Of a DNA stretch of 64,000 bases, positions 11,401 to 51,989 are shown piece by piece. Origin of the DNA: Ruditapes philippinarum (taxonomy: Eukaryota); assembly GCF_026571515.1 (NCBI RefSeq), contig NW_026858374.1, positions 1 through 64,000 of the forward strand. The letters are read 5' to 3'. Each line of letters opens with the position of its first letter. Position 1 is the first letter of the stretch. The notes under the pieces are model-generated. The model ran no database searches, was not told the origin of the DNA, and was given only the letters and a program-made list of their open reading frames with translations. The position numbers and the translations under genes are program-made.

Positions 11401-11842
11401 GTAAGAAAATGAAAAAGACTCTCTGAAAATTTATCAAATCTTCCTAAAAAGTTTTGTGATTGACTGATAGTTTAATGACTTTAATAGTTTGTGATTGAGA
11501 CATGTTCAAGTTATAAAATTCATATTTGAAAATAGTCATTCTCTATTTCCACTAAACTTAAAGGGAGTTAATTTGTTAAGATCACTAACTTCAATTTATA
11601 CATGTATATCCCTTGATGCTGTGGGTTCAAATCGCACCAGGGATATTGAATTTTTTCTTCGTGTGTGGCATGATGATAATGAAAATTATTCCTCTTACAG
11701 TTTCCCACTTATAAATTTATAGAAGTTAGCTTTAAACAATTTTTAAACAAAACCTTCAAAAAAGTCAAAAGAATTGATGTTAATTTTTACAAGAAATACA
11801 TCAAATATTAAACATTCTTAACATGTGTTCTTTTTCTTTCAG

Positions 11843-12220
11843 GTCCCTAATTACCACAAGATCATTAAAGATCCGATGGATTTTGGAGCCATCAAATGCA
11901 AGCTTCGTAGAGGGCATTTTGCCCATTACAATTCAGTAGAAGAATTTCTATCCGACATCAAGCTTGTGTTTCGAAACTGCTTTAAATACAACTCTGAAAA
12001 ATCTGATGTATATGCTGTAGGAAAATCTGTTCAGAACTATTTTGAATCACTTGTGAAACACTTTTTGCCGTGTTATGTAGACTACCTCAGCAGGCGAACA
12101 CCAAGTCCTGTCACAACAATGGAGTCAAATGGAACCGACGGACAGAGTCGCAATAAGAAACGCAGAAGTCCTGCACCGGACTCCACAAGGGATAACAATA
12201 GTCCGGTCCATTTTTCTTGA
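11843..12220 (+). CDS. TRIM33: TIF1/TRIM33-like terminal coding exon: rest of bromodomain plus basic tail (putative NLS KKRR)
   Basis: tttctttcAG|GTCCCT gives VPNYHKIIKDPMDF...DIKLVFRNCFKYN; stop TGA ends at 12220. Confidence 0.92.
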   Translation, partial: VPNYHKIIKDPMDFGAIKCKLRRGHFAHYNSVEEFLSDIKLVFRNCFKYNSEKSDVYAVGKSVQNYFESLVKHFLPCYVDYLSRRTPSPVTTMESNGTDGQSRNKKRRSPAPDSTRDNNSPVHFS

Positions 12221-24700: not shown

Positions 24701-26733
24701 TTTAACATTGTACACAGTTGAAAAGTAAAGGGTTGTGAATGGGTTTGAAATAAACAATTTTCAGAACTGTGATCAATTGTAGGCATAGTAAAGTAGCTGT
24801 TTTGGGAAGAGTTTGATATTCTAAATTGTGCCATTGGAACAAGCCTAGGCTTTGACATTGTTTGTTGTCAGAAGTATCGATTTTGAGGTCATTAGGTCAA
24901 AAATGACAGTGGAAAAATCCTTGGGTAACAATAACTTGTTATGGCTGTTTTATAACTACATCTTAGGACAGCACATACTTTTATGCTTTAGAGTCTTTGT
25001 TACTAGTATATTACATGTCTCCTAAAACTGAATTGCAGCCTTAAGTCAACACATACACATATTCAAAGTCAATATAAAAATCACAACATTTATTCAGAAC
25101 AACCGGGATACTACATTGAATTTTTAATTTCCATTAGTGTATAGTTAGAAATGGCAAAGGTTATTTCTATATATTAAGATTAATAGCACATTACTGTTTA
25201 TACACGGACGTGCATCATGTCAATATCCTTTGTAAGTAATTCATTGATAATGCAACACAATTTCTTTTTATTAGGGGTGGAGAATGAGAATGAAAATTAA
25301 GTAGCCATGATTTGTTACCGAAAGTATTTGCAGTGTCAACTCGAGACAATGTATTGACTTGATATAATCTAAACTTATGTACTTAAAATTACCTCTTGAT
25401 ATCATAACGAGAATGGTGTTGACTCTGGTACAGGGTCGAAATTAAAACACCCGACATAAGTAATGTAAAGTAACTCAAGCTTGCTTAATTTTAAAGGGAA
25501 GATAAAAGTTGTCTTTCTTGATATATTTCATTTTAAGATACGCCATGGGGTTACTTCACATATGCCATGTCAATCTAGGACCTGAATAGACAGACAAAAC
25601 AATAGTAAGAATACGCAAACCGGATATTAGCGTAGACTACACAAAACAAATAATTAAACAACTGCTTAAAAGTGTTAAACCATTTTTTAAAAAGAATAAA
25701 GATAATTTATTTGTTTTTGATTATTGCTCTTTGGAAACAAAAAAATATGAACGACATTTCGACATGAATAACCACAAATTATACCATAGAAGGTATGCTT
25801 TTCGAATTTTGAAGGTGTTTGAGTGTAAACAAAAGTTATACGCAGAGGGCAATGATGTTTATTAGCCGTGAACAATAGCTGAAGCTTTGCATTGCTGATA
25901 CAACCATGGTTAGCAATCTTGATGACAAGGAAAGTGCATTTTGTCATCGAGGCACACGGGCCTACGGACGTTTTAACTGATATCTATATATATGTATAAC
26001 AAATTCATTTACCAAGGAGTCGGATTTTAAACCTCAGTTCATAGAAAACTTTGATGTTGCGTACTAAGTTACCATGTCCAGTCAAATACTCTTCCGGTAT
26101 GGTGTACTAGCTGATAAAGTCCTGCGAGTATAACTGAATTAGTAAAACAATGAAACAGGCTCAACTCAGGGGTACATTGCCATTCTTTTTGGACATTATC
26201 ACATGGTACACATGTTTCTTATTCAAAAAGTATGAACTATGGAAAAACACAAGCGTCAAAAATAAACTTCAAGATTTTGATAAAAAAAGAAGATATTTAC
26301 GTTTACACTTTTATCAAAATATCTTTAAACAAGGATCACTCTTTAACAATTATTTTTTATATACATATGTATAAATCAAAATTAAGGTCTTACAGCGAGA
26401 GTCAGGTAGTATTACGCTTAGATAATGCACCGTGTATATCCAGTAACACCGGAATGTGAAAATAACGCACGATTCGTGCAAGAAGTAACGCAGAATTGTG
26501 CAATAAATGGCGGATACATGACAGGATTTCCAATGCGGTAAGTAAACTGGCCAATATAATTTTTTTTTAACCGAACTGAAAAAAAGGAATAGCCGCATGC
26601 GGCTGCGAAGACATTATTCTTTATCCATCGTCAAGATTATGTACTTTTCAAGATCATTCGTTAAAATAATGGCTTGAGTACCGTTATAAGCGTGATTCTG
26701 CCTTTTGTCGACTTTTATAAGTACAACAATGCA
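12738..26733. repeat. Tandem array of four ~3.43-kb units (about 12738-16453, 16454-19880, 19881-23305, 23306-26733)
   Basis: Identical ORF-track peptides recur with a ~3425-bp period. The junction gtacaacaatgca|tagatttaatctaaaaagtggg occurs three times; the last copy exits at aacaatgca|aattatacc. Copy 1 is ~290 bp longer. Confidence 0.95.
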
Positions 26734-27109
26734 AATTATACCGTATTATTTCGATTTTTGGTAGGCAAAGGACATTCACTTAAATTCTGGTGACATAGAA
26801 AATTGAAAAAAAGCTGATAACATGTGTTTCAAGCTGTTTCTATTAGGTAACGCAGATGTACGAGAATAGTGCTTCGCGGTAACACCTGAAAATGTGATTT
26901 TGGTACTGAATTGTTACACAGGTTTAACGCCATTAATCAGCCAGTATAAACACTTTTTATTGGTAAATTGTTGAAAACCCTAACCAAAATTTCAAAGCAA
27001 ACAGAATAAAACGGAAGCGGTAGACATAATAATAATAATGGTTAAGGATTTAACCAGTGGATAAGCTATCCATTGGTTAATTTTAACCAATGTTTTAAAC
27101 AACCCGGTC

Positions 27110-27932
27110 CTGTTGTCCGTATTACACCTTTATATGGACAGCTATCCATTGATCCATTGATGTGTAATTCAGTTTTAGTTCTACCTTACCTAACAATGAA
27201 ATATGAAACATATAAAAACCACTCTAGCTTTTACCGAAGCAATTCATCATGTTGTGTAAAAACTACGAGTTTATGCTCATTAAATGACGGGGCCTGTTTA
27301 TTTTCTTTACCAGTCTTGCAGAAAATGTAAAGACACACCTTATATATTTAAACAGCTTATCTTAATCAAATGCAAATGTAAATAAGTAAATATATATCGC
27401 AAAATAAAATGTGCTCTTGGCTACAAGGACAATTTGCACACACGCAAACTATGCCATATTTGATATCAAAATACACAACAATGCGTCACCGTTCAGAACT
27501 GTTCAGTAATTAGGAGAGATGTGTAAGCGGTCGGTAAAGTCGCAGTTCCGAGGGTAGCAGGTTCGAGTCCCGGGCAGACCGCACATTTTTCTCACCCTGT
27601 GACAAATGAAAATAAGATGGGTTTTTTTTTATCAGAATATTTGAAAAAGTCTAGTTACAAGAAAACAAATCAATATCAGTTGTATTTCTATAAACCTCAA
27701 AAAAATCTGATTTATTTATTATCTACAACTTGTTTCTTACGTTTTATGTCATTATCTCTGCCCTGACATTATGTCTGGTGACATATCGAAATATATGTAT
27801 CATTCCCAGTACAAAAACGGCCGTTTGATGTCTGTGTCGGGTTTGAGCATAACCGAAAATGTGATTTTAATCCGCTTCCACATGTGACGTCACACGAAGA
27901 CCAATCAGACCAACGGGCCCAGTTCCAGTCAA
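27110..27932 (-). pseudogene. Pseudogene paralog of the TM-TSP1-gC1q genes (closest to the 39829-41590 copy)
   Basis: TSP1 exon 27741-27932 (192 nt, DWNWARWSDWSSCDVTCGSG...ICHQT*CQGR) has an in-frame TAA. The C1q exon remnant at 27110-27335 (TFSARL...SFNEH...KVELKLN...MDSCPYKG) has a lost acceptor, a frameshift and large deletions. Intron sequence matches 40420-40560. No TM exon recognised. Confidence 0.88.
27500..27604 (+). mobile_element. tRNA-like repeat fragment inside the pseudogene intron
   Basis: B-box-like GGTTCGAGTCCC, ending ...caccctgtgaca; no complete cloverleaf. Confidence 0.4.
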
Positions 27933-28769
27933 CAACTAGTGGAAACTAAAAATGATTTTCAAACTATTTCCATGAACTTCAAAAGTGACTAAAGTATGTC
28001 ACTTGCACAGAGGAGCAGACTGCATCGTTGCCGCGATTTTTAGGAGTAAAACAGGTTCTGTAGTAAGAAAATCGCTTCGCATTTCTTTAATAATGCATAC
28101 ATGTAATACATAGTACATACAAGAGATAGTCCGTGCTAATCTCATTTGATTACTTTATCCCATGATCATTTCACAATTGCTAAAATTTCAAATATTTCTT
28201 AAAACATTCTCAAAAACTGCTGTAGAAAAAATGATTAGATCACTCTCCACGTGTCAATATTTTGAGAATTAATCAAAGTTTAAGACATGCCCTCATGCGT
28301 TAAGATCATCATCCATTATATCTGAAATGTATTTTACTTGACATATTTTATACCGCAAAGTAATAGATATTCATTTCCATTTATGCCCCTTTTTCAAGAT
28401 TTTTTTTTGTTTTACAAGATCGAATTGTTTTAAACTGTTCATAATGACCAAAATATAACGAATATAAATAATTTGAAGTAAAATAAGGTATCGACATGCC
28501 TGATTCCGAGTTATCTTTAGTTGAAAATGACTTAAAAAAGCAAAAATGCTCACTTTCAGGAGCAAATTATTAACAAATGAGCATGGCAACCCAATTATGG
28601 TTTTCTTAACACTTCCTACTGCCATAGCTTAGTTTGTAAAAATATGACACATGTTTGAAGTTGAAACGTATGAACAAAAAATGCCAAAAATATGTTTCTA
28701 CACTGTATATACGTTGCAAATTGAATTAATAATAGTTAACATTTTTAGACAATTTTTTTAAATATGTGT

Positions 28770-31681: not shown

Positions 31682-32083
31682 CCCATTCCCGCATAAGCAT
31701 TCTGTGAAAAATGGCTGTTTTCATTGAAAACCCCCCTGTTACACAAGCTCAAATTGCTATGAAACTATAATGTCGGTGGTTTTACTCAGGTACCCATTTG
31801 TGCCTAAAATAATGCACGAAAGGGCACCTAAGGTCTTCATCCACCGGTAAAGCTGGAACGTCGCCATATGACCTATACTGTGTCGGTGCGACGTAAGACC
31901 CAATCAATCAATCAACTATGAAACTAGAAAAAATGCTTTAATACTGATCAAACTTGGCACAAATGTTTACTAAGCCATATCATTTGTATCTTAATTTCCT
32001 GTTACCAGGACAACTAGGGGACATTTCAAAATCACTATAATGTTGTGTTAATTTTTCCATCAAAGCTGCAAATTCCCGATGGG
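31682..32083. mobile_element. Partial inverted copy of the 3810-4425 piggyBac-like MITE, within the foldback spacer
   Basis: TTAA|CCCATTCCCgcataagcattctgtgaaaaatggctgttttcattgaaaa is the reverse complement of 4378-4429; homology continues to the equivalent of ~4145. Confidence 0.75.
31768..31915 (+). mobile_element. 5'-truncated SINE with 11-bp TSD
   Basis: Flanked by direct repeat CTATGAAACTA (31757-31767, 31916-31926); (ATCA)n tail; a near-identical body lies at 38832-38945. Confidence 0.85.
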
Positions 32084-33867
32084 ATTTTTTTCATCTTTTA
32101 AATGTCAATATAAGATCATTTTCATAATATCATATTTTAATGAAATATTTCTATTACATTGTATCTATCACACAATTTATTACATTTTCCGTCTATGTAT
32201 AACTCTTTCAGTATTTATATACAAAATGATTCTTATTATTAATTTATGATTTCATTTAAACATTATTAGTATACAGAAGAAACAACAAATAAATAATAAA
32301 AAGAAAAAGAAAAAAACAAGAAAAAAATATTGACAAAAGTAAAATTATCTCATATTCTATACCGTCAGCTTATTCGCCAGCAGTTAAGAACCGTCCACCA
32401 GAAGGCGAGAGCCGACAATGCGATAACGCGATGACGACAGTGCAACAGTGCGATGGCGAGAGTGCGACAATGCGATGACGACAGTACGACAATGCGACAG
32501 TGCGATGACGACAATGCGACAGTGCGATGGCGACAGTGCGATAAGACTATCGCTCTGTCGTCATCGTACTATCGCATTATCGCACTCTCGTCATCGCATT
32601 GTCGCACTCTCGCCATCGCATTGTCGCACTCTCGCCATCGCACCCTCGCATTGTCGCACTCTCGTCATCGCACTGTCGCACTCTCGCAATCGCACTCTCG
32701 CATTGTCGCCATCGCACTGTCGCATTGTCGTCATCGCACTGTTGCACTCTCGCATTGTCGCCCTCCGTATTTTAACGTATAACCACGATGGCCCTAACGG
32801 TATTCCGTACTATCTAGCGTATTACCGTTTCAGTTAGGGTCAATATGGCGACATGGGTACAAACATTCTCCTTTTCGGTAACCCAGACCCTTACTAGCCT
32901 CACCGACTATATTACTTTTTTCAGCTGATCAATTTGGCAACATCTATAGCAATTATGTCGAATTCATTTAAGCGAAAAAGTAGTAAAAAAGTTAAAAATA
33001 AAATACCTTAATTTTTTTTTTTTTGGGGGGGGGGGGGGTGCTATTATTGACATACACAATTTTTTAAGCGGGTTGTTGGTGGCGGTTGCGTTGTATTGGT
33101 TGAACTAAAAATCATGTTTGAAATAAAAACAAACAAAAATGACGATTGATTACTAGTATTGCTTTTATTTCAAGCACTTTATAAAATTTCTTGTATTGAA
33201 TAGTTTGTTTAAGCACTTGAATTCAGCAGTTGAATGTAAATCATAAGATAAATGCTATTTGAAAGTCCATTACGTCTGGTAAATAAATGTGGTTAGATAT
33301 GTTGGGGTATAATATTACATAAATTTCACATTAACTGAACCTTTAAATTTCACACACACTTCCTTCTACAATGGCAATGTATTCTGTGGTTATGCAAGCA
33401 AGATGAAAACCATTAAACAGCTTATAATAATTCACCTTTGATAGTGAAACTTGTTTTGATATACATCATAATTATGGCATGAAAACAAACACGCACGTAC
33501 ACATTGTCTAGCGATTTATATACAAGAAATAGCATATTAATATTAGGGCTTTTCATTCAGTTTCATGCATTATTTTTATGTAAATAATGCAGTGAATTGA
33601 CAAATGCAGGCATTTAATGCAATCTTTATCTTAAATGAAAAACAAGTAAAAGTCAGAAATGATAAGTGATGGGGATGTTCTATGTATCCTTAATTCTGTT
33701 ATAAAGACAATGAATATACAAAATGACGTATCTAAGTTATAAGTTAATTTCATTAATTAGTCTGGCAACAAATTATTCTAAAATAAACTCATCTAAATTA
33801 TTTTCAATTAATGAACAAGAGTTGACAGTTTTTATTTGCACACCGTAAAACTAAATGATATCTTATT

Positions 33868-35308
33868 TTAGTTTTTGACGAGTAAAAAGCCTGTAAATGT
33901 AGTTCCATCTGGCTGAATGTGAATTGGCACACTCCCTGAATTTTGGACCCATACTTCACTTCCGGCATGGACAAATACCACAACAGAATCACCGCCTGCA
34001 GTTTTTATTCCACTTTTAAACGGACACTTACTGGTGTCCATTTGAAACTCAGCGGTATTGTTAGAACCACTCGCACCATATTCTCCTCTAAAGCATATTA
34101 TGTCGTCCATGATTGTGTTGTCTATTTGGTTTAATTTAGTGTTTTTGAATGCAAAATAATTGGTACTACCATAGATACGAAGCTTCGTAGTTATACCATA
34201 AAGAGTTGTCGCACTGACAGATTTGTTATTCACTCTAAGTTCTACTTCCCCATATGCGTCGGTAATTTGTATGAAATACATAAAGAGATAGACACCACTC
34301 TCTGGGGCTTTGAATATACCCGATCTATTGTCGTACCCATTCATATTATTGGTGGTAATCTCGTTAAAGACTACACGTTTATATTGTTTGACTGCCCGAG
34401 TCTTATTCGCAAGTCTTGCTGAAAAACTCACATGATGACCTGAAAGGCAAACATATTATTTATACGTATATCAAACAAAGAAAAAAACTATAAGCACACT
34501 TAACAATTCTTTTTTTACTTTGAACAGCAATCGTTTTTGATATTCACGACTATCAAAATAATCATACATTGACTGTATGTTAAGTGTTTTTCTATCTTTT
34601 TGTCACTGACGAAAAATTGCCTTTTATTCTTAAGTCAAGCGAGTATTTCTGTGCGAAAAAGCATCTGCAAATTGAATACTTACGAACTCTATCACTTCTT
34701 AGATCCAGACATTTAGGCAATTGACAGACCGAAATATCAATAAAACTCCCAGCACAAAAAATGCCGCTTGGTGTTGGAGTCGGGTTTGTGCATGTCCGAA
34801 ACCGTGACTGTGAACCATTCCCGCACATGACGTCACATGAAGACCATTCTGACCACGCAGCCCAATTACCATCAACTAAAATATTTAAATTGTATTTTTT
34901 CATTACTGTAAGGTGTTCAACACGTTTTATTAAAAGGGCTTTCTAAAACCCTGCCCACTTTCCTTTGAATGAACGTTGTAACAATATTATCTCAGCAGAG
35001 GTCGTTTTTTTGAAAGTATCTAAAAATATTTCTTTGTTCACCGCAAACAAAATCTGAAGATACTGTAAAGTATACTAACCTTGATTGACAGGAATATTTA
35101 TCGCAAATATGATGATAACGACAACAACTGCGACATATAGTATTATCATCATCACAAGCATAGTGATCAACAAACATTTCATCCGGTTTAGTGTATTATC
35201 GGATTGGCTAATTTTGTCTTTGATGATTTCTGCCTTTATTTCCTTTGTTCCTACCCCTTTCGTATCCAATCTTGTGTTCTCATAGATCACACTTTTGTCA
35301 CTCTGCAT
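33868..35308 (-). CDS. Type II membrane TSP1-gC1q protein, paralog A (330 aa; exons 35308-35080, 34875-34684, 34439-33868)
   Basis: Exon 1: MQSDKSVIYENT plus hydrophobic TM. Exon 2: TSP1 VDGNWAAWSEWSSCDVMCGNGSQSRFRTC. Exon 3: gC1q (VSFSARL, VVFNEI, GYDNRSGIFKAP.SGVYLF, GSEVWV, TTFTGFLL). All introns GT-AG, phase 1; the joined length of 993 nt is in frame. Confidence 0.92.
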
Positions 35309-35430
35309 TTTAACAAATTTACAAACACTATATTTAAATATCAAAACGGTCTAATCTACTTGCTAGACTAAATAAAATCATAGATACATTGGCTCTTATA
35401 CAGGACAAATATTAATTTAGAGTTAAGTTT

Positions 35431-35445
35431 AAAACTTCCGTGTTT
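35431..35445 (-). promoter_or_regulatory. Conserved ETS-like site (CGGAAGT) ~125 nt upstream of the paralog A ATG
   Basis: aaaacttccgtgttt; the same motif occurs at the same offset in paralogs B and C. Confidence 0.5.
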
Positions 35446-36479
35446 AAGATTTTTCACCAAACAAATACTTGTATGATGCACATATGTAAAATGATGTACT
35501 TTTGTAGTTTAATATGTGTATCCATGAGATCAGATCTAAAGAAAAGACTCTAAGAGTAATATAAGTAAATGCAACAAATAAGATGGCGTGCTTGGCTACG
35601 GCTTCAGTTTTTAACTTCAAACATGTTGGTTAATCTTTATTGATTTGTTATGCTGTTTAGATTCATATTTTCAGTATCGCTTTTTGCCCTACTCATTATG
35701 CACAAGCACGAAATGTTACTTCCGATTCTTAGTAAATTATTGTAATTTAAAAACAGTCTCAATGTATAGTGAAAAACTCAATGAGGATTTACGGCAATTC
35801 AAACAATAGACAGAACAAAACATTACGTTCCAGGCCATTAATAAAATAATCAGAGATAAATGTCTTCCAAACCAATTGGTTAAAAGTTTTAAACTATGGC
35901 CATAACTTGATCATGATAGTATGTCCATTCTTATTAATAAACATTGACAATAACATTTACCTCTGATTACGGAGAATAGCATGGGATAACAATTATTTAA
36001 TCTGAAACAAAAGATTATAAACTTCTTTTCTTTTCATTGTCTCACAGTAATTCGTCAAATACAGAACTAGTTAGGACATTCTTCAGCTTTCGATACCATA
36101 TTAGATATCCCCAGCAAACTTTAAGCATTTTTCTAAGATAAATAAGCAATTATCATAGTATAGTATTGCAAGCAGTATAAAAGTGAACTACCGGTTAGAA
36201 CACCAGCAACATTCTGGAGGGCCGTGGCCATTCAATTATGCCATTGTGGAAGACATGAATAAACCTTTAATATTAAATTTCTTAGTTTAACATTTTAATG
36301 TGTTAAATTTCCATGCATTTTAAGGAAATTATGTTTATACATCAGATAATCAAAGTATTCACTCAGGATGAATAAGTCTAACTAATGTTTCAACTTTTCT
36401 CTATTTTATGTAAATTTGTTGGGAAAATTCAAAGTTCTTTAAAAGTTATCTCAGAGAACAGTTTTTAGGGATACCCAGA

Positions 36480-37000
36480 CAAACAAACCTAAACTAAAGA
36501 GGAGATAACTCTTGAAATAAATATGCTAGAATTATGAACATCGTTATACATGATGTGAGTGGTGACAAAGAACAATTATCTTCAGTCTAAAGTAGATACC
36601 ATTTATAGTAACAAAGAAGAAAAGAATTTCTAGAAAAAATCTTAAGTTCAAGGGGGACATAATTCTGGAAATAGTAAAGCTAGAAGTCGCACACATCATT
36701 TGAGTAATAATAAGGAACATATACTTGTCTGAAGCAGATACATTAAGTGACAAAGAGGTTATAGAAAGCAAACAACATTTATTTCATGAAAGTCTAAGTT
36801 CAATGATGATAATTCTGATAATATTGGTGCTAGAATTATGAACCCTGTAACATATGATGTGAGTGATGATAAGAAACACATATTTAAAGTTTGAAGTAGA
36901 TCCACCCAGAAATAAAGAAGTTATTAAAAACATGAAAATTCTAAGTTCATCGTGGTAAATCAATACATTTTGATGCTAGAATTGTGAACCTCGACGTGAA
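36480..37000. repeat. Degenerate ~150-bp satellite remnant
   Basis: atgctagaattatgaac-like motif recurs at ~36522, 36827 and 36973, with a weaker copy near 36680. Confidence 0.5.
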
Positions 37001-38069
37001 TAATTGGTTAATCAGTAGGGGACTAAGAAAAAGTTCAAACACTTAGCTATAGAAAATAAATGACGGAGCACATGTGATTACTAATATTGTAAACGGACCT
37101 GGACTTCTCTCGGGTATTGTGGTTAATTTGGTACACTTTGCGCGTTACGTTGTTGATTTTCTTTTTGTTTCTGGAATAAGTTTAAACATATTTTTACTTT
37201 ATTTACTTTACAAAATAAATGTATCAACAATGTATTACCCTAAAATTCGATAGTAAGACTGTCTCGATAATGTGCCACCAACTGAATTAAAAAACAAAAT
37301 ACATCAATGTCACGAAATTGTAAAGTTTCAATTTGAAAGCTAAAATCAACTAAATCATATACCGGCAAATTAATGATTTTAAGCTGTTTTGCTTATAATA
37401 GACATTAACTTGATCGCTATTGTTATCGTTTTTAACTTGTTTAAATAAAATGCGTTATTACACAACAGCTGTTTGTAGCACAAATAAAAAATCACGGTCC
37501 ATGCCCGAGAAAAAAGTAACCAATGAACGATCACCTGATTGCTATCCCTTTCTCTGTCGACACAACTTCTCTCTTCCCCTCGGTACGTGTATGTCGTTGA
37601 GAAGACACGGGGCATCGACAGAAGATTTGAAGACTGGGGACGGCGAAAAAAGATCGGAACTTATGCTGCGGACCAGCTGCCGATGTGCTGACTAAAGACG
37701 AGGGGAGTGGCCCTACAAAGTAGGCGCTTTGGTCGACGAGGATGGTGTGCTAAGATGCGTGAGCCCTCAGCACGGTTAGACAGCTTGAACGGCAGGCCGT
37801 TTGCTGGCACCAACAGCCCTTTTCAGGGCTACCCTTTCGTATTGTCACAGGTTACTGTATATTAAGGTTCTCATTGACCGCCGTACAGTGACCTACTTTT
37901 GGCTCAAAATTCATATCTTTGGCTAATACTCCGTGGAAATTGCACGGAGGTAAATTATCCCCACTTTGTGCTCCTAAATTAACTCTTTAATGGTATGACT
38001 GGTGACATGTCCGGGGTCTGTACTCGACAGCGAAAGCTGCATTTTGTGCTCGAAAGGGCGGATGAACCT

Positions 38070-38312
38070 NNNNNNNNNNNNNNNNNNNNNNNNNNNNNNN
38101 NNNNNNNNNNNNNNNNNNNNNNNNNNNNNNNNNNNNNNNNNNNNNNNNNNNNNNNNNNNNNNNNNNNNNNNNNNNNNNNNNNNNNNNNNNNNNNNNNNNN
38201 NNNNNNNNNNNNNNNNNNNNNNNNNNNNNNNNNNNNNNNNNNNNNNNNNNNNNNNNNNNNNNNNNNNNNNNNNNNNNNNNNNNNNNNNNNNNNNNNNNNN
38301 NNNNNNNNNNNN
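38070..38312. other. Assembly gap (243 N)
   Basis: Run of N. Confidence 1.
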
Positions 38313-38831
38313 AACCCCAGAAAAAGTGATCTATTCAATGGACATGCTCGGGAGTACGGGTATCTAATACCCGTTAACGCACTGAGCATGCTTAAGTATA
38401 TTACTCTGACACATTTTCAACAGAAAGGTCCCCAAATTATGATACAACCTTATTTATCTTATGTAAGGTGTTGTGATATTGTTTACCATTCGTGACAACC
38501 ACAATGTATGTTATGAATATTATAAAAAAATAAATAAAATTGTGAAAATGACAATCATTTTATGTTGAATGAAATCATTGCTTTTACTTTCCAACTTCCT
38601 TCCATGTTATTCATTTGTGGCAATCATTTATATTTACGAACGTTACCATGTTGAAATTGGGAAGAAAAGCGGTAAACTATCGTTCGTGTGTATGTTTGTC
38701 TCATGTACGAATATCTACTTTTTATTTACTTTCCATAGAAAATGACATTGTTTTGTCAGTTAAAAAAGGACAAATGAAAGAAAACAGTTTAAAAAAGTTA
38801 AAAACGACAAATAACCGACAAACAACCGTTT

Positions 38832-38945
38832 ATGGAAGGGCACCTAAGGTCTTCCTCCACCAGTAAAGCTGGAACGTCGCCATATGACATTTACTGTGTC
38901 GGTGTGACGTAAAACCCAATCAAGTAAATAAACAAACAAAACAAG
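38832..38945 (+). mobile_element. SINE 3' fragment
   Basis: agggcacctaaggtcttcctccaccagtaaagctggaacgtcgccatatgac matches 31820-31900; (AAAC)n tail. Confidence 0.8.
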
Positions 38946-39249
38946 TTTAATGTTATTATTTGCAAGAATGCTCCTAGGCCTGACATTAATGTAACAAGGT
39001 GTCAAAACTGTCACTATCGGTTTATTGTATAAAATAAATTTTAGAGTGGTTTAATGTTGCTTTCTGCACATTTATTTTGTGAAGAATTGAATTCTTAATT
39101 TACAGGTGAATCATGTAGTATTGACAGATTAAACGTTATAACTTACTTTATAGAATTACTTGCAGGTTAAGATACATATTGTTTGTTCATACAAAATGAC
39201 TTAAATAGACCATGGTCATGAAATATATAAACAATGATAAGAATATACA

Positions 39250-39325
39250 CAATTGAGACCACCCCGCAATTAAGACCATTTTGGTCCAGTACCGTTTGTG
39301 GTCTTAATAAAGGGTTTTTACTGTA
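39250..39325. mobile_element. Tc1/pogo-like MITE end fragment (second copy 50873-50946)
   Basis: gaccaccccgcaattaagacc...ggtcttaa...gggtttttACTG|TA is shared by the two copies. Confidence 0.55.
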
Positions 39326-39828
39326 AAAGATTTTTTTCACACAAAAGTACAATTATTTAAGAAATATATTATCACATAAAAAAAGACAGTGAAAAGGTAC
39401 ACATGTATACATTTTAGAAAGTTAAGGGAAGTACTGATCACACTTTCACAATTGATTATCAACAAACATACAAATATTTATCAAAATTTAGGTATTACAG
39501 CCATATTTATGCAGTATTACACTTAGATAATGGGTAAACTGTTGAAAACTAATCACAATTGAAAACAGAGCATTTCAAAACAAAGACAAAAAATGAGTTC
39601 AAGCGTTAGAAATAATTATAAAAATAACATTAACCTTCCATGCTGATATATGAACCAATCTTAAATGTCAGTTCATCAACATTAGACGACGTCGTCACGT
39701 ATTAGATATCTTATCATGCATTTTTATCCAGATTTTCTTAAATCTATATATAACCTATAGGTATTTTGAATAACCGTTTCTATGCTCTTTATATGTTTGA
39801 TTGTTACTTTTTGTTCTGTATTTATTCC

Positions 39829-41590
39829 CTAATCTTCCTTCAGTAAAATACCAGTGAAAGCGCCTGAAGTAAATGAATGAAAGTAACTATATCGCCATCC
39901 CGCATTCTGAATCCAAACTTGACTCCCTGCATGCATATATGTAATAATTGAATCACCACCTTTTGCTCGTACCCCTCCTTTGTATGGACAACTGTCCATA
40001 AATTGTTGTAATCCAACAATGGAAGAACCGGTTAAAAGATGCTTACTTTCTCTTAAGCAACTTATTTTCTCTACGGTTGCATTATCTGGCCTGTTTATGT
40101 TTGTACTTTGGAATACGACAGAATTATTGTTACTAAAGACAGAAATATCTACATACATACTGGAAAGTGTTGTCTTACTGATGGATTTGTTATTCAGTTG
40201 TAGTTCTATCTTACCAAATTCACCGTCAATTTCAATGAAATATATAAACAGATAAACACCACTCACTGGAGCTTTGAAAATGCCTGAACTAATATCGTAC
40301 CCATTCATGTTATTGTACGTAATCTCGTCAAACACGACGGGTTCATGCTCATTAAATGACGGGGGTCTGTATACTTTATTAGTCAGTCTTGCAGAAAAAG
40401 TACTCCTATAACCTGAAAGACACACCTTAAATATTTTAATAGCTTTTCTTAATTCAATTGAAATGAAGACAGGAAGTCAATTTATACTGCAAAATAAAAT
40501 AGCTCTCGGTTACAAGGACATTTTGCATACTTATTTAAGCAAATTATGGCTGTATTTTATATCAAAGTACGCAATGTTCCTTCTATATATTGGCGAAACA
40601 ATGATTTTAAAAGTCCATTTACACGAAACCAGTATCTGGTGTGTCCGCATCGTATATAGATTTACTATGAAGTGTTTCTAAATATTTTTTTCTCCCAAAT
40701 AAACAGATCACATTAACTTCTACAATTTGAATCTTACTTTTCATGTCATTAACCCTGCCATGACATTTTGGCAGCTGACACGTCGCAATATCTGTATCAT
40801 ATCCAGTACAAAAACGTCCGTTTGATGTGGGTGTCGGTTTTGTGCATGTCCGGAAACGTGATTTTGATCCACTTCCGCATGTGACGTCACATGAAGACCA
40901 GTCAGACCACTGGGCCCAGTTCCCGTCAACTGAAAAGTGCGAATAATTTTCAAGCTGCGTCCTTGTACCACAATAGTTATCTTCGATATTATGGCCTAAT
41001 AATCTAAATTCCTCAAAGTCTAACAGAACAATATCAAAGTAAACTATACTTTCGTTGCAATGGATATAGGTGTCACCCCGGTATAGAATAAGGTCCGGTC
41101 CGTTGTAGTATAGAAAATCTTTGATAAGACAGTTAAACCTGATAATAGTAACACATATTTAAAGTTCTTAAAAAGTTGAAGGGTTGACATTATTCACATG
41201 TGTGTTAATTGACTAAATTAGCACTGACGTTTACGTTATCGTAAGCGGATATCTTTGTCAGATATATAGTATCAAAAACTGTAAAATTATTTGGCAGACA
41301 TCTTTAGGCAAACAAAAAATGATGTCATGTGAGTTAGTTTAGAGGTTAATGTACTTACCTTGGTTTATGGGTGCATATATCACAAATGTGGTAATTATAC
41401 CAATAACTGCAGCGTACATTAAAATCATCATCACAAGTGCTGTGTACATTAAACATTTTATCCGAGATAACCTATTGTCAGAAAGGCAATTTTCGTCTTC
41501 TACACTCGCCCTTTTAGCATCAGTTCCTATCCTTACAGTACCGGTATTTAACACAGTGTTTTCGTAGACCACAATCTCCTCGCGTTGCAT
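39829..41590 (-). CDS. Type II membrane TSP1-gC1q protein, paralog B (335 aa; exons 41590-41359, 40929-40738, 40412-39829)
   Basis: MQREEIVVYENT plus TM; TSP1 VDGNWAQWSDWSSCDVTCGSGSKSRFRTC (frame not shown in the ORF track); gC1q STFSARL...GYDISSGIFKAPVSGVYLF...AFTGILL. GT-AG phase-1 introns; 1008 nt in frame. Confidence 0.92.
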
Positions 41591-41711
41591 TATAAACACT
41601 TTGTGAGCAATGGAGAACTAGATTTTAAGTTGACGGTTAGAGTCCAAACTTTACTTGTATCGAATAGAATATTATAATACTAGTATACCGTTTCAAATGA
41701 ATGAAAATCTA

Positions 41712-41725
41712 AAAACTTCCTTGTT
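41712..41725 (-). promoter_or_regulatory. Conserved ETS-like site (AGGAAGT) ~122 nt upstream of the paralog B ATG
   Basis: aaaacttccttgtt in an otherwise diverged upstream region. Confidence 0.5.
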
Positions 41726-44053
41726 AGGTGAATTTACCTACACATGAACAGCAGTTATTAATCGAGTAATGCACACGCATTATAATAGTACAGTTGAATA
41801 GCGATGATTCAATGTTAGGAGTTCAAGTTTTCCACCGTGGCAACGCTTCCTGAAGGCACTGTAGACACGTGCCTACACTTTTTCGCTGAAATGATAGATA
41901 TAATGAATATAAAATGCAATAAGGATAATGGCGTCCAGATATGTAGAAAATGATCAATAGTCATATTCGAAAACAAGTCCGTAATTGAGTTTTATCTTAT
42001 TTTATAACGAAAGCGATGCCTTTTGGATGAAGCATTGACATCTTGTCTGTCATACCATTTTCCCTTGAGGTATTCATAATTTTATTTTTTGTATGTTAGC
42101 TCGTGGGTTCTCTAACGTTGAACAAAACACATAGTAGTGACGAAACCAAACAAGGTCATAAAGTCGATTTCAAATAAACGTGAAACATACTCTGTGTTAA
42201 TACATCTCGGTAACGATTTAAGTATGTATTGTAACTACATTGTATATACACAAGTAAAATCTTCGTATACACAGCAAAATCTTTATTAGCACAGTGGTAA
42301 AGCGTTTGCCTTTTGAACTAGCGATGCGATTCATTCTTTTTTTCTCCCTTTTTTAAAATTACTTCACGCAAAATTGTTCATTCAAACTGAATATATATTT
42401 GAGAGTGAATAGTTCTTCCGGATTCTTTTGTTGACTTTGCGATCAGAATGACGAGCTGTTTTATTTGCGTAGAAACCGTACTTATTGAATTACTGGAGGT
42501 ATGAAATAGAGAAAAACAGAATCCCTTAAGAAAGCCAACACGGCAAAATTGAAAATGTTGCAGGTTGGGTGTGATTAAGTCTGTTCATGGGCGGTAGTGA
42601 TACATGTAATTGCAAGCTGCCTTCAACGACACGTTAGTGCCACATTGAAGTTTACTTTGTCTACTTTACGTTAACAATCAGTTTTATGTATTTTGTTTCA
42701 CCATAAACATTAAATCGAGAATTTCATTTATAAATATTGGGTCATTATATCTTATTGATAAAATACATCAAACGCTGTTTGTGTGACAACAGATATTTTA
42801 TCACAAGTTATTATTTTACTGTGTGTTCCTTTGACTCCTAGGTGTCTTACCGATTGTCCTATGACTATGTATCAAGGTGTTTTGCGACTGCTTTTAGTTA
42901 ATGACCCTCTTTCTTTTTGATCATTGTTTTCATTTTCTTTCTAATTACATTTTTAGACAATCTTAATAATCACTTTAAAAGATATAAGCCTTTTTGTCGC
43001 TATGCGAATGAATTTTGATGTTTACTAAAACTTTTGCATACATTTGTTTTTATTGCATAGTTCTAGATTCATATATCGTTACTCCAACGATATACATGTT
43101 CCGCAAATGGCTCCTTTTTGCAAAAATGTCACTAACAATAGTTTTGCGCTAAGTTAGTTATAAGTAGAAACATATTTATATTGATAGAACATCTTTTAAT
43201 GTTATCAAAATGCTGCAATAATAATGTATTCTCTTCCTGCTGAACATGCCTAAAATACCTCAGAATGCAGCTATGCCAATGTAGAATTTCAAAAAAATCG
43301 GGGAAGCATGCCCTCGGACTCCCCAATTACACTAGTGCCTACACATTGGTTAAATTATTATCTAGATAATTAATGAAAGTTTTAAGAGCAGTGTAAAATG
43401 TTTATTTGGAGGAAGTTTACAGATCACAAGTATCCGAGAAATTTAACTAGAAAGTTTGTTTCTGATACTCCTTTAGATTATTTTAGATAGATGTTAATCA
43501 AGATTCAAGTAATATTTTACATATAATGTGGGATTAATGACAGATTTTTCAGTATTAACGACTAAATTTCTACTGCAGTAAATTTATGCATATTTTGACC
43601 ACTTAATGGTAATTTACGTGGTTTGTAAGTGCCATTGATAACGTGTAAATTGCTTCCTTTTGGTTACTTCACAATATTACACATTCAAATACATTTTCAA
43701 AATTTTCATGAAAAGTAGCATGAATCTGGAGGCGTGCTGCTTTAAGTGCATCATTTCAATCTGCAATTAATAAAGTCAAAACTAAGTCAGACACACATTA
43801 TTAGAAAACATTTATAGTAAAAAATAGTGATAATAATAAAAAATGTAAGAATATAATGATCGTATCTTGTATATATAATACACATGAACCGTACCAAAAT
43901 TGATTTAATAAATAGTTTTGAACATATTTCTAAATATTGACAACTTTGTTTTCCTTTTCCTTCTAAAAGTCAGTGGTATGGAATTAAATATGGTAAGTAA
44001 ATATCGGACATTTTACACTTTTCAGAAATATCATTTATATTATTATACTAATT

Positions 44054-45567
44054 TTAGAGCGGCAAATGAGATGAAATTGTGTCTTGTATCTTTGAACTTT
44101 CGACCAGTAAAACTCCTGTGAATGTAGTACCATCTGGCTGAATGTGGATGGGCAGTCTCCCTGAATTTTGGACCCAGACTTCACTTCCTGCATTGACAAA
44201 TATCACAACAGAATTACCACCTGCCGTTTTTATTTCACTTTCAAAAGGACATGTTTTGATATCTATTTCTATTTTATCAATTTTGTTAAAACCAGCTGCA
44301 CTATAACGTCCTCTGAAACATCTTATTTCGTCCATAACTGAGTTTTCTGTTTGGTTTAAATTTATGTTTTTGAATACAAAAGAATTGTCTCTACCAGTTA
44401 TGTAAATCTCCGTAAATATACCATAAAGAGTTGTCGCACTGACAGATTTGTTATTCATTCTCAGTTCTACTTCCCCATATGCGTCGGTAATTTGTATGAA
44501 ATACATAAAAAGATAAACGCCACTCACTGGGGCTTTGAATATACCCGATCTATTGTCGTATCCACTCATGTAATTAGTCGTAACCTCGTTAAACACTACA
44601 CGTTTATCTTGGTTTACTGCCGGCGCCCTGTTCGAAAGTCTTGTGGAAAAACTTACATGATGTCCTGAAAGATACGCATCAGATATTTATATCGCAAACA
44701 GAAAAAGAAGCAAACTCAAAGTTTTTAGTTCACTTTATGTTATCCGCAAACAAGTAAAGTATTGATATTAATAGTCATGACCTATAAAATTATGACATGT
44801 TTTAAGGTAAAATGTGTTAAGGACAGTCATTGAAATAACGATCCCTTTATTCAGTAGTCAATACATCTTAAAGTTTGAGATAAACATCTCCTCAAAAAGG
44901 CAAAAACAACTTACGAATAATGTCACTGCTGTCAACCAAACATTCAGGCAATTGGCAGGCTGAAATATCTGTAACTTTTCCAGCACAATGAATACCGTTT
45001 GCTGTTGGTGTCGGTTTTGTGCATGTCCGAGACCTGGACTGTGAACCATACCCACACGTGACGTCACAAGAAGACCACTGCAACCAAGCAGACCAGTTCC
45101 CGTCAACTAAAATATTCAAGTTGTATGTTTTACACACACATATATATATTTGTAATATTTGTAAGTAGGTCAAACTCTATTAAATGGCTTTCTACCCCTC
45201 CCCCACACACCTTTCACGTGGTAATTAATATATACGCTGTATGTATATACTTAGTAAAGAATGTAATGAAAATCTTTATACATATTTTTTATCACCAATG
45301 CGAACAAAATAAGCTGAAGTTATTGTAAGTATACTAACCTTGATTGACAGGAATATTTATCGAAAATATGATGATAAAGACAAAAACTGCGACATAAAGT
45401 ATTATCATCATCACAAGCATAGTGATCACCAAATATGTCATCCGATTTAAGACATTATCGGAATGGCTCGTTTTGTCTTTGATGACTTCCATTTTTGTTT
45501 CGTTTGTTCCTATCCCTTTTGTATTTAATCTTGTGTTCTCATACATCACATTTTTGTCACTCTGCAT
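44054..45567 (-). CDS. Type II membrane TSP1-gC1q protein, paralog C (343 aa; exons 45567-45339, 45106-44915, 44664-44054)
   Basis: MQSDKNVMYENT plus TM; TSP1 VDGNWSAWLQWSSCDVTCGYGSQSRSRTC; gC1q VSFSTRL...TTFTGVLL with a ~13-aa C-terminal extension relative to A. GT-AG phase-1 introns; 1032 nt in frame. Confidence 0.92.
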
Positions 45568-48021: not shown

Positions 48022-49546
48022 TTAATTATTAAAAGCGCTATCTTTATTTTTTGATAGGAGCGAAAGGAAAACAGCGTTGATGATAATAGTGCATAATAAG
48101 AAAAACGCCATTGCAATTAAATCAATGCCTGAACTGATGTGTTGCCACGTTATTTCAGGTTCATTTATGCTCGCTTTATTCTCGGCTGGAATGCTACATT
48201 CATCCTTAATGTCCACTGGTTTAACTTTGTTGTTTATATCTATCTTCTCTCCGAACTTACAAGGGAAACATAATAATATTCTGAATGTACTTCGTAGACA
48301 AGCTGGTACTTGGCTTGTCTTAAAATAAATACTCAGATTCAGTAAGGTTACCACGGTCATGAGCGTGCTCAAGATCAAAAGAATCATCAAATAGTAGCTT
48401 AGAATCGGCACCGGTTCTGACGTCTTGGGAAGATTATCTCCAACAAGGGTCATGAAGACAGCTAGAGCTAGTAACACTGTAACGGAATACCCAACTCTCT
48501 CACCTGATTCAGCTGGTAGTATGAACACTAGAATATTTATTATAGACATAAAGACTATAGGAAGAACAACATTAACAATAAGGAACTCGGGCTTGCGTTT
48601 GATTGTGAATATGAAATGTAATGTATCGGATGTGTAATGTTCGCCGGCTGTTCTTTGTACCCTGGTATTTTCCAAATCCCATTCGCCATTTTCTGTGAAG
48701 AAATCAAGCAGCACTTCATCAGCGGTAGGGTGTAAGTATACTTCTGTACCAACGTAGCTCCATACGTTAAACGATAAAATACATATCTGTAACAATAGAT
48801 GCAGTATTGTTATATAATAAATTACATTTGATCTGATTAATTAGAAAGAGCTGAAATCAATAGATTGGTACGATTGACAAATGAAAGCGAAATTTTAAGT
48901 AGTTTAACGCATAATGTTATTTTACCTATTTGAATAAAGAATGCTCTTTCTTATATGTTTTATATGTTATGTGTTGTAGAAATTGTTATGCACCATTTAT
49001 TTTACAGATGCTTCTATGGGAAATCCTAAAACTAAAATGGATATAACTAACCTGAGTATCAAACGGGTAAAATGTGACGTCAGCATTGCAAGAGGTGTCA
49101 AAAACAGCTCCTGGTACAAATGTTGTATGCCCGGAGTTATATATCCTAATTGTCATCCAGTCATCTCCAAGGTCAGACAGCTTTGTGTACGGATTTGTGA
49201 GAACCAGTTTTGGATACCATACGTCGGATAACCTAAATAATGCTGAGTATGCCATTCCATAGTCTTTTGGATCCCAGGTAATGATTTGATCGTTCCATCC
49301 TAGTATAAGAAGACCATACACTGAAAACTTTGCTGCGACTTCGTTAAATTCTTGAATTGTTAATAAATAAAAAGAGACGGTGACGACTACCGGATGACTC
49401 TGATCTGACACTGGGCGTTGTCGGGCGTCATACCCGTCCAGTACATCGCGCATCAGGTCAACTGAATTGTTGTATGAAACACAATATGATATTCTTACTG
49501 ATGATAAACACAGTAGTATAATGACAGCAACATGAACATATCTCAT
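48022..49546 (-). CDS. Divergent nicotinic acetylcholine receptor-like Cys-loop channel subunit, non-alpha type (419 aa; exons 49546-49052, 48786-48022)
   Basis: Signal peptide; GYDARQRPV; WND..I.WDP.DY; VWYPKL; Cys-loop C-NADVTFYPFDTQ|I-C (13 residues, split by a phase-0 GT-AG intron); ENGEW; M1-M3 with PAESGERVGYSVTVLLALAVF; M4. Confidence 0.95.
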
Positions 49547-51989
49547 CCTGTCCGAATAAGAAGCCTTTTAAAACTGACAGTACAAATATTGTTAAAATAT
49601 TTATAATACCAACTAAAATATGTTTGTATCCGTGCTTCTTTGTTGAAGTTCTAATGCCTTTTATTCAATATTATGTTGAAAATATAATTATTTGTCAAAC
49701 AATTTGGACAAAATCCATGAAATGTTTATCATAACAAGTACACACTACCGTTAATAATTTCTCAAAGAAGTGCATTACGTTGATATGTGGCAACCTCTAA
49801 CTTTCAAAATATCTATTGGGATTTAAAATTTAAAGGTTACGGACAAAATGTCTTACTATTGTAGTTTTATCGGTTTTCAAAAACGCTTCTATTGAAGTGA
49901 AAGGAGTTATTTTGTAATCGGATTGTTGTTCAAAAACTGTTCATTGTATGAAAAAAAAGAATTTATAGATAAATATTAGTAAATACAGGTAATTTAAGAC
50001 GCATAGAAATGAATGGTTTAATTTGAGTACATCTTCGCACAGCAATAGAAAGCATATTGATTTATAGCCTAATTAAAAAGAAGTAAATACACTAATGAGA
50101 ATAATGGACATTTTTTTCAGCGTGAGATATTTTTTGAACTTTTAGTAGATGTAGTTAACAAAATATATATGACAAAATATAGAAGGTAAGAAAAGCTATT
50201 ATCAAACGGGATAATTGAAACTCTACAGTATTAAAAGAAAGGCTTGTACATTTTCATAAAATATCTGCTTTTCGTATGGTCATCCACACCGCCAAGAAAC
50301 AAACAAACAAACATGTAAATACTACTGTATGCTGGACAAAAAAAATACTTTAAAAAAATCAAATAGTAGGCACTGGGAAAGATTCGATCGCCACTGTCTA
50401 TCGAGTGTTGATTCAGGTTTCAAAATAAAGTTCGCCAGTTAAATAAATCGATCAGTAATGTTAATACTGCCAGCGGAGATAATTGTTTAAACAGTTATTA
50501 TTACATTAAGGCGTAGACTTATCGGAATTGTTTCTCTTTAATGCGGCTTTTAAAGAATAACTAGAGAAATATTTTATAAAAATAAATTTCTATTTTGCCA
50601 TGCAAGTAGGAACTCGTGCAATATTGTACGTATATACAAGCAAAATTAGGTTCAATATGTGCCAAGGCAATAGGTGAATTACGTACATAAAACATATGAA
50701 AATTTAATCTTTAATATTACATATATTCAGACTTATGGTCTTATTAGGATAAAATATTATAACATCAGTTTATAGTAATATTTGAAGGTTATAATAAAAT
50801 TGTTTAAACATGTTCATACGTAAAAATGTAAATAAAGTGGTCATGAAATATATACCTTGATAATTATATCCATAACTAAGACCATCCGCAATTAATACCC
50901 CTTAAGTCCAGTCCCTTTGTTGGTCTTAACAGTGGGTTTTCACTGTATATATAAAACGTGTTTGCAAGTAAATGTCCTGATGAACGGCAGCAAGCTAGAA
51001 TATTGCTTGTTGCTTGCATGCAGCAGGTGCAGCAGATGCACGGCTATTCAGCATGAGTAATCGCTGGTGTATGATACACGATTTCAGCGCAGTATGAGCG
51101 AGGCGATAGCGCCGTGAAAGCGCTAAGAACGAAGTAGAAGCGCGGTCCGAACGCAGACAATCGCTGTAAGAACGCAGTACAAGGCCGTGGAAGCTCCGTA
51201 GCAACGCAGTGATTGCCGTGAGGACGTCGTGAAGTCTCCATGTCATCAAAAATTTCAGATTTGTCTTGCGAGCTCGTGATGCTTCCTAAATCAATAAACG
51301 CCGTGCAAACGCAGAAGAAGCGCAGTCTAGTGTGACAGGGTCTTTACAAATATTAGTTCTACTGAAACACAGACGAAACGCCTTTGTTTTTTGTTGTTGT
51401 TTTTTATTGTTTTTTACGGTGGGGCTTTGTTGTTGTTGTTCTTCTTCTTGTTGTTATCAAAGTATACTGGCACATGAAGTCATATTTTCAATAAGACGTA
51501 GATACAATACGGTTTTAATTATGATAAAAAACAATATTGATAAACAAGTATTTTATTTCAAAACCATGCAATTCTGCCTGTAAAGTATTTAAACAAAACA
51601 GGAATTCCTGCATTATTTTCTCCTCATTGAGCATTTATCACCAAAGCGAATATTAATCAATAAATGACTTATTCTCATGGTCAATACAAGTTAATGTTGC
51701 ATATCGGGGAGTTAAATTGTACATGTCAAATGACTCATCATTAAATTGTTGTATTTGCTATTAATTGAGACGTTAAACAAATTGAAAATTTGACTCTCAT
51801 CTTTGTGTTTTCAAGTGATAGATTTGTGAGCGATTTGTTTTTAAATAAATCTTATTATCTAATGAGAACGTAAATCTGATAGTATATAAGTTGTATTCAA
51901 GTGAAGAAAAAGCACAACTATTGTTAAGAGCAAGAGTAGCCCGTTATTTGTATATCTTTTTAGATATAGTATTGGTAAGTTTTATATCT

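What the first reader, a model, noticed from the sequence alone, without database searches (positions are those of the whole stretch)
33990..44425. ~55-aa variable, Cys-bracketed insertion inside the gC1q domain
Seen: the gC1q exons encode ~190-200 aa, versus the usual ~135. The extra sequence lies between ...KSVSATTL and ...AGGDSVV and keeps two Cys (CFR/CLR...CPF/CPY) plus F.F.N..(L/I)N, while most other residues differ among A, B and C. The pseudogene has deleted most of this insert. Inference: a disulfide-stapled accessory subdomain acting as a diversifying ligand-specificity loop on a conserved scaffold.
Basis: partly seen in the sequence, partly recalled or inferred. Interest (0 to 1): 0.7.

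Follow-up and report, generated by a model that had tools for sequence, protein, structure and literature searches.

The report
Clam C1q receptor with repeat cap
Three neighbouring Manila clam genes encode predicted membrane-anchored C1q proteins with a real, transcribed 60-residue extra piece in the head, made of two short repeats and two cysteines, which likely folds into a cap at the tip of the trimer; the piece changes much faster than the rest of the head in one of the two gene lineages, and likely serves to recognise varying targets.

Summary
The insert is real. Three intact minus-strand genes (cytoplasmic tail with an invariant YENT motif, one predicted membrane span, TSP1, gC1q) carry about 60-64 residues (net about +55) between strands E and F of an otherwise canonical gC1q fold. 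Spliced RNA contigs keep it. Two genes equal Ruditapes philippinarum RefSeq proteins. The insert marks a small family: 6 of the best 150 clusters at 50% identity, and one locus in this genome.

New here: the insert is a two-fold repeat (hydrophobic-x-hydrophobic-x-G-x-x-N-x-hydrophobic; 0 of 2000 shuffles). It alternates in and out like beta-roll rungs and weakly resembles DUF3060, below the cut-off.

Selection support is partial. dN/dS is 0.62 in the insert against 0.19 in the core for A-type genes (p=0.002), but it is not above 1, and site models are not significant. A post-hoc set of out-facing positions gives 1.7 (p=0.04). The B lineage shows no such excess (0.23 against 0.54). The pseudogene's loss of the insert is one of several deletions.

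Best reading: a trimeric type II membrane recognition protein with a folded, variable beta-rung cap. A new variant of bivalve C1qDC; fold, disulfide and ligand untested.

The parts
35080..35308 (-). Gene A exon 1: cytoplasmic tail (YENT at ~35273-35284) and one predicted type II membrane span
   Evidence: model equals RefSeq protein P0006; spliced joint
34684..34875 (-). Gene A exon 2: TSP1 domain, symmetric phase 1-1 exon of 192 nt
33868..34439 (-). Gene A exon 3: gC1q domain with insert
34009..34200 (-). Insert of gene A (residues 80-143 of the domain, between strands E and F); Cys115 at 34093-34095, Cys138 at 34024-34026
34144..34188 (-). Repeat unit 1 of the A insert (residues 84-98, predicted strand-turn-strand)
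34042..34101 (-). Cys strand and repeat unit 2 of the A insert (residues 113-132)
41359..41590 (-). Gene B exon 1 (tail with YENT, membrane span)
40738..40929 (-). Gene B exon 2 (TSP1); RNA contigs of a B-like allele join at a slightly different 3' end
39829..40412 (-). Gene B exon 3 (gC1q); insert at 39973-40164
45339..45567 (-). Gene C exon 1 (tail with YENT, membrane span)
   Evidence: model equals RefSeq protein P0004
44915..45106 (-). Gene C exon 2 (TSP1)
44054..44664 (-). Gene C exon 3 (gC1q); insert at 44234-44425
27727..27939 (-). B-like pseudogene, TSP1 exon remnant with a stop
27109..27378 (-). B-like pseudogene, C1q exon remnant with four deletions, one of about 175 nt across most of the insert (junction ~27150-27156)

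Best explanation
These genes encode predicted type II membrane C1q proteins, likely cell-surface recognition receptors, whose head carries a transcribed insert of two short repeats that is predicted to fold as two beta-rungs, likely pinned by one disulfide, and would form a variable cap at the tip of the trimer. Shown: gene structure; splicing with the insert kept; a canonical gC1q core; the position of the insert between strands E and F; the two-fold G-x-x-N repeat with in/out alternation; invariant Cys; faster amino-acid change in the A-type insert, concentrated at alternate positions; an invariant cytoplasmic YENT. Inferred: the head trimerises like other gC1q domains. The three E-F inserts meet at the apex and stack or intertwine into a small beta-roll with an Asn ladder. 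Its out-facing residues replace the usual apex surface as the binding site for a changing ligand (microbial, parasite or allogeneic surface). YENT relays binding inward as a phosphotyrosine site (the Y-x-N SH2-binding label is recalled, not tested). TSP1 is a later, shuffled spacer exon, since a distant relative has the membrane span and the insert but no TSP1.
For: Core: 122 residues align to Caprin-2 gC1q at rmsd 1.6, Z 18.6, leaving about 60 unaligned; strand order places the insert between E and F. Repeat: profile self-match 14.3, 0 of 2000 column shuffles; 4 of 10 single inserts have at most 8 of 500 shuffles as good. In/out alternation in both units. The P0003 model draws strand-turn-strand twice in the insert (87-94, 97-100, 117-124, 127-130) at low confidence. 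DUF3060 matches 3 of 10 inserts, best E 2e-4, 21.5 bits against a cut-off of 23.1. Among A, C and the second-contig gene, 17 of 19 out-facing positions vary against 5 of 18 in-facing and 27 of 129 core columns; omega is 1.7, 0.29 and 0.18. Insert DNA identity (0.72-0.79) is about as low as intron identity (0.74-0.81), while the core keeps 0.86-0.91. A fourth A-type variant (P0002) differs at 40 of 64 insert against 28 of 123 core residues; RNA contigs of 2 of 4 runs match A up to the insert edge and then read like P0002 (loose ends at 34189). YENT is invariant in 7 of 7 tails. Precedent: the EMILIN1 apex insertion binds integrin (PMC3342094, passages).
Against: No confident model of the insert: pLDDT is below 50 over residues 81-145 in A and 38-58 in P0003. 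The repeat is weak in the clam genes alone (102 of 2000 shuffles) and not detectable in A, B or C singly (119, 410 and 212 of 500). The DUF3060 model also rings on a non-coding 27-bp minisatellite in this genome, so that hit shows a simple motif only. Omega over the whole insert is not above 1; M1a against M2a gives p=0.26 and 0.54. The omega of 1.7 (p=0.04, uncorrected) rests on classes I set after seeing the site table and on three sequences; it falls to 1.06 with all five and is 0.36 in the B pair. The tail, membrane span and TSP1 exons also change many residues. No ligand, tissue or induction data.
Confidence: 0.5

Rival explanations
1. The insert is a largely flexible, disulfide-pinned apex loop (EMILIN1-like) under relaxed constraint; its variability is drift, not selection for new ligands.
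For: Low pLDDT in both models; whole-insert omega 0.62 is not distinguishable from 1 in the A type (p=0.12), and no significant site model; the E-F loop tolerates unrelated insertions (His-rich repeat in P0054; EMILIN1).
Against: Strict alternation and invariant G, N, F and C across sequences only 37-50% identical; in-facing positions under purifying selection (omega 0.29-0.64) and the B-lineage insert at 0.23; length held at 60-67 aa.
Confidence: 0.25
2. The insert is a folded beta-roll used for assembly or adhesion (stacking trimers head to head, or binding matrix or a partner cell), not for discriminating foreign ligands.
For: G-x-x-N rungs with Asn ladders are typical of stacking beta-solenoids and adhesin heads (recalled); TSP1 is an adhesion module; the B-lineage insert is conserved while its C-terminal core loops vary.
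Against: Out-facing residues differ three ways among A, C and the second-contig gene at 8 of 19 positions, which is hard for a fixed self-stacking interface unless it encodes self/non-self specificity.
Confidence: 0.15
3. The proteins are TNF-like membrane ligands, possibly shed, and the insert tunes binding to an endogenous receptor.
For: Type II topology with a C-terminal C1q/TNF-fold head is the TNF layout; most clam TNFs have one membrane span (PMC8905726, passages).
Against: The head is C1q by Pfam and fold rank; I saw no conserved basic cleavage motif in the stalk sequences; fast change and copy-number difference fit foreign ligands better.
Confidence: 0.08
4. The insert is a cryptic intron or an assembly artefact.
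For: None found.
Against: Spliced RNA contigs keep it; it is present in spliced transcript proteins P0001, P0157 and P0010.
Confidence: 0.01

Closest known systems
Bivalve C1q-domain-containing (C1qDC) proteins (PF00386; classes sghC1q, sC1q-like type I and II, smultiC1q; PMC6835236, passages)
   Same: gC1q core, tandem duplication, fast turnover, presumed recognition role.
   Different: Membrane-anchored with a tyrosine-motif tail and TSP1 instead of a signal peptide and coiled coil; a 60-aa E-F insert lacking in the other C1q domains measured.
EMILIN1 gC1q (PMC3342094, passages)
   Same: An insertion near strand F places an extra segment at the trimer apex, and that segment is the ligand (integrin) site.
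   Different: EMILIN1 adds 9 residues, loses strand F and is disordered. Here about 55 residues are added, strand F is kept in both models, and the insert has a Cys pair and a two-fold repeat.
DUF3060 (PF11259) and other G-x-x-N beta-roll repeats
   Same: The motif hydrophobic-x-hydrophobic-x-G-x-x-N-x-hydrophobic, preceded by a Cys strand; weak HMM match in 3 of 10 inserts.
   Different: Below the curated cut-off, only two units, embedded in an animal gC1q; homology is not shown. That DUF3060 is a beta-helix is recalled, not tested here.
Type II C-type lectin receptors with cytoplasmic Tyr motifs (e.g. Dectin-1; recalled)
   Same: Topology: short tail with conserved Tyr, one membrane span, C-terminal recognition head, clustered variable genes.
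   Different: Different head fold; no shared ancestry claimed.

Membership tests
C1qDC / gC1q (PF00386) | Pfam C1q match above gathering score | tested here: met
   51-58 bits against cut-off 23.7 for A, B and C
C1qDC / gC1q (PF00386) | Jelly-roll fold matching solved gC1q domains | tested here: met
   Family member P0003 model: Foldseek E 7e-9 to collagen VIII NC1; VIA Z 18.6, rmsd 1.6 over 122 residues. The model of A has the same strand order but was not searched.
C1qDC / gC1q (PF00386) | Homotrimer formation | not tested
EMILIN1-type apex-loop gC1q | Strand F replaced by a short disordered loop | tested here: not met
   Strand F is present in both models (147-156 in A, 144-155 in P0003); the insert is about 60 aa
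DUF3060 / beta-roll repeat | HMM score above curated cut-off | tested here: not met
   Best 21.5 bits against 23.1; 3 of 10 inserts match at E up to 10
DUF3060 / beta-roll repeat | Tandem G-x-x-N units with in/out alternation | tested here: met
   Two units, 0 of 2000 column shuffles; alternation table
DUF3060 / beta-roll repeat | Parallel beta-helical fold | tested here: inconclusive
   Strand-turn-strand twice at pLDDT 38-58; the insert was not folded or searched alone
TNF-family membrane ligand | TNF (PF00229) head | tested here: not met
   Only C1q matches in Pfam; C1q entries take the top ranks in both fold searches
Positively selected immune receptor | Sites with omega above 1 by site-model test | tested here: inconclusive
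   M2a not significant; post-hoc class omega 1.7, p=0.04, in the A type only

The most novel reading that the evidence does not exclude
A new class of animal recognition receptor in which three copies of a two-rung repeat intertwine on top of a C1q trimer into an adhesin-like triple beta-roll. Its out-facing residues would be under diversifying selection and vary in kind and copy number between clam haplotypes: a membrane-bound, tyrosine-signalling C1q with a swappable specificity cap, used for pathogen or self/non-self recognition.
Probability: 0.25. Interest if true: 0.78.

Novelty: new variant of a known kind. Interest (0 to 1): 0.52.

Why it matters
Bivalves carry hundreds to over a thousand C1q genes, mostly soluble, and how their binding is diversified or signalled is open. 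This single-locus family offers a membrane-anchored form with a conserved tyrosine tail and a separable, variable cap on a constant trimer. That makes a clean swap experiment possible. If the cap folds as predicted, it would be an elaboration of the C1q/TNF fold not found in my searches of solved structures or papers, and a candidate polymorphic immune locus in a farmed clam.

Tried and rejected

Insert against solved-structure sequences: 2 hits at E 1.2 and 1.9, not significant. PHROGs and NCBIfam: only single-member weak hits. ESM Atlas: the whole domain returns ordinary 126-134-aa C1q clusters, and the insert alone gives no usable hit. Phage and plasmid tblastn: no match. Metagenome scan: 3 loci, matching only residues 20-52, not followed. 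The insert alignment was too variable for pattern scans of genome and viral contigs.

Origin from the 27-bp minisatellite whose translation mimics the repeat: no DNA similarity (best E 0.054); not supported, though too old an event would not show. Pseudogene deletion as evidence of a removable module: rejected, it is one of four deletions. Single-position differences in RNA contigs on A: 10 of 13 insert rows against 4 of 11 core rows change the residue; the list is cut, rows share codons, and the core rows may come from a paralog, so I do not lean on it. Earlier findings of the scan: none relevant.

Papers. No description of this architecture or insert was found in nine full-text searches. Passages read: PMC13504780, PMC6835236, PMC8905726, PMC3342094, PMC13348615. 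A term search in PMC10672478 gave 0 hits for insert, transmembrane, thrombospondin, TSP, apex and loop. All others were seen as search listings only. Gerdol et al. 2015 (cited in those papers) was not read, and no supplements or figures were seen. The Mercenaria paper classes some C1qDC as transmembrane, and its Fig. 5 and supplements may show this layout.
Full report
Locus and genes. The window is the start of contig C6861 of a 1.41-Gb genome. Three minus-strand genes have three exons each: tail plus one hydrophobic span, TSP1, and gC1q. My models of A and C equal two NCBI proteins named for Ruditapes philippinarum, LOC132753005 and LOC132753007; B gives an open 335-aa frame. All introns are GT-AG and phase 1, so the 192-nt TSP1 exon is symmetric. 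A distant transcript protein, P0010, has tail, span and C1q with insert but no TSP1, which fits a later gain, or a loss, of that exon. A B-like pseudogene lies at 27109-27939. A further broken tail-plus-TSP1 copy is on contig C3778.

The observation. Pfam C1q covers profile positions 2-76 and then breaks. Adiponectin aligns to residues 25-65 and 150-190 of A. The spacing between the C- and H-strand motifs is 137-144 aa in 13 family proteins and 70-99 aa in 85 of 108 domains measured; 10 others fall outside both. In clam loci it is 140-142 against 76-91, with 15 of 34 loci unmeasured. RNA contigs of 4 of 4 runs join both introns of A, with no joint in the insert; B and C-like transcripts are also spliced with the insert region covered. 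Only one of those runs is on record as RNA, but the exact intron joints make all of them transcripts. The insert is therefore coding.

How widespread. A profile search of 1.84 billion cluster representatives gave 2695 hits; of the best 150, only 6 match across the insert. Word-based searches added no further family. In the genome, full-length matches are the three window genes and two on contig C1422; only the best 150 candidates were scored. C1422 is collinear with the window on both sides at about 88-96% identity in the long blocks. It is most likely the other haplotype; a segmental duplicate is not excluded. It has one A/C-type and one B-type gene, where the window has C, B, A and a B pseudogene. 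Its genes are only 76-78% and 68% identical in protein to the window's. The source species of P0003, P0009, P0010 and P0011 is not given.

What the insert is. Both models place it between strands E and F and keep strand F. The core of the P0003 model matches solved gC1q domains (122 residues, rmsd 1.6, Z 18.6). By established knowledge of the fold (recalled), this loop lies at the apex of the trimer; EMILIN1's insertion at strand F is described at the apex and binds integrin (PMC3342094, passages). Aligned with distant members, the insert shows two copies of hydrophobic-x-hydrophobic-x-G-x-x-N-x-hydrophobic-x-hydrophobic, 34 columns apart. A variable loop and a short Cys strand lie between them, and the second Cys follows. 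The repeat beats 2000 of 2000 column shuffles over ten sequences. It is weak in the five clam genes alone (102 of 2000) and invisible in A, B or C singly. Hydrophobicity alternates in both units. DUF3060 matches 3 of 10 inserts, best E 2e-4, below its cut-off. The same model rings on a 27-bp minisatellite elsewhere in this genome, so the hit is motif-level. The better model draws strand-turn-strand twice, at pLDDT 38-58. Two rungs are too few to be stable alone (inference), which would explain poor monomer models if three chains complete the fold.

Selection. For A, C and the C1422 A-type gene, omega is 0.19 in the core and 0.62 in the insert (p=0.002); 0.62 does not differ from 1 (p=0.12). 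For the B pair it is 0.54 and 0.23 (p=0.09), and the insert is below 1 (p=0.0004). For all five it is 0.30 and 0.49 (p=0.053) (my own codon model; pairwise counts). Site models are not significant (p=0.26, 0.54), though 7 of 8 sites flagged in the A type lie in the two repeat units. Splitting the insert by the in/out pattern, 17 of 19 out-facing positions vary among the three A-type genes against 5 of 18 in-facing; omega is 1.7 against 0.29, p=0.04 for differing from 1. I set these classes, the test is uncorrected, and it does not hold for B (0.36) or for all five (1.06). Insert DNA has diverged about as far as introns. P0002 is a further A-type variant that differs at 40 of 64 insert and 28 of 123 core residues; contigs in 2 of 4 runs follow A to the insert edge and then read like it. 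Tail, span and TSP1 also change many residues, so the contrast is partly a very conserved core.

The tail. YENT is invariant in 7 of 7 tails, including P0010, which is otherwise about 27% identical there. I read it as a phosphotyrosine docking site (recalled consensus), which favours a receptor over a shed ligand.

Mechanism. Most likely (0.5): a trimeric type II membrane C1q whose three inserts build a disulfide-pinned beta-rung cap; its outer residues set ligand choice in the A-type lineage, and the tail signals. Shown: structure of the genes, expression, position, repeat, conservation pattern, rate contrast. Inferred: trimer, cap fold, disulfide, ligand, signalling. Rivals are a relaxed flexible loop (0.25), an assembly or adhesion roll (0.15) and a TNF-like ligand (0.08).

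Novelty. It is a member of the bivalve C1qDC expansion by Pfam and fold, but not of the EMILIN type or of DUF3060. Nine full-text searches found no description of this layout or insert; subscription papers, figures and supplements were not seen. Verdict: a real, expressed, apparently undescribed variant of a much-expanded family, with a testable structural idea and partial evidence for diversification. Interest 0.52.

Noticed in passing
window 15186-26197: A unit of about 3.4 kb is tandemly repeated about four times in the window; parts of each copy map to the same single stretch of contig C1422.
   Followed up: no
G000 contig C1422:6367-16071 (L031, L032): Probable other haplotype with two genes instead of three plus a pseudogene; its A-type gene has a C-like upstream flank and an A-like downstream flank, as after unequal crossing-over.
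   Followed up: partly
P0054: An unrelated C1q protein has a His-rich tandem repeat of about 40 aa in the same E-F loop.
   Followed up: no
L052/L055 (G000 C11783:263800-265600): A 27-bp minisatellite of about 64 copies whose translation scores over the DUF3060 cut-off: a false-positive source for that family.
   Followed up: partly
L062 (G000 C3778:~31780-32320): Dispersed broken copy of the tail, membrane and TSP1 exons with stops; no C1q exon in the stretch fetched.
   Followed up: partly
window 48022-49567, minus strand: Two-exon gene that looks like a Cys-loop (nicotinic-type) ligand-gated ion channel subunit, just upstream of gene C (label recalled from sequence, not scanned).
   Followed up: no
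window 11822-12220, plus strand: Last exon of a gene that looks like a bromodomain protein, convergent with the cluster (label recalled, not scanned).
   Followed up: no
window 39832-39900 (gene B) against L032: In the B lineage the most divergent part is the C-terminal loop between strands G and H, not the insert.
   Followed up: partly
P0010 tail: A second tyrosine motif preceded by acidic residues, resembling a hemITAM (recalled label), beside YENT.
   Followed up: no
window 42500-42700 and 43520-43750: Short interspersed repeats present in thousands of RNA contigs.
   Followed up: no
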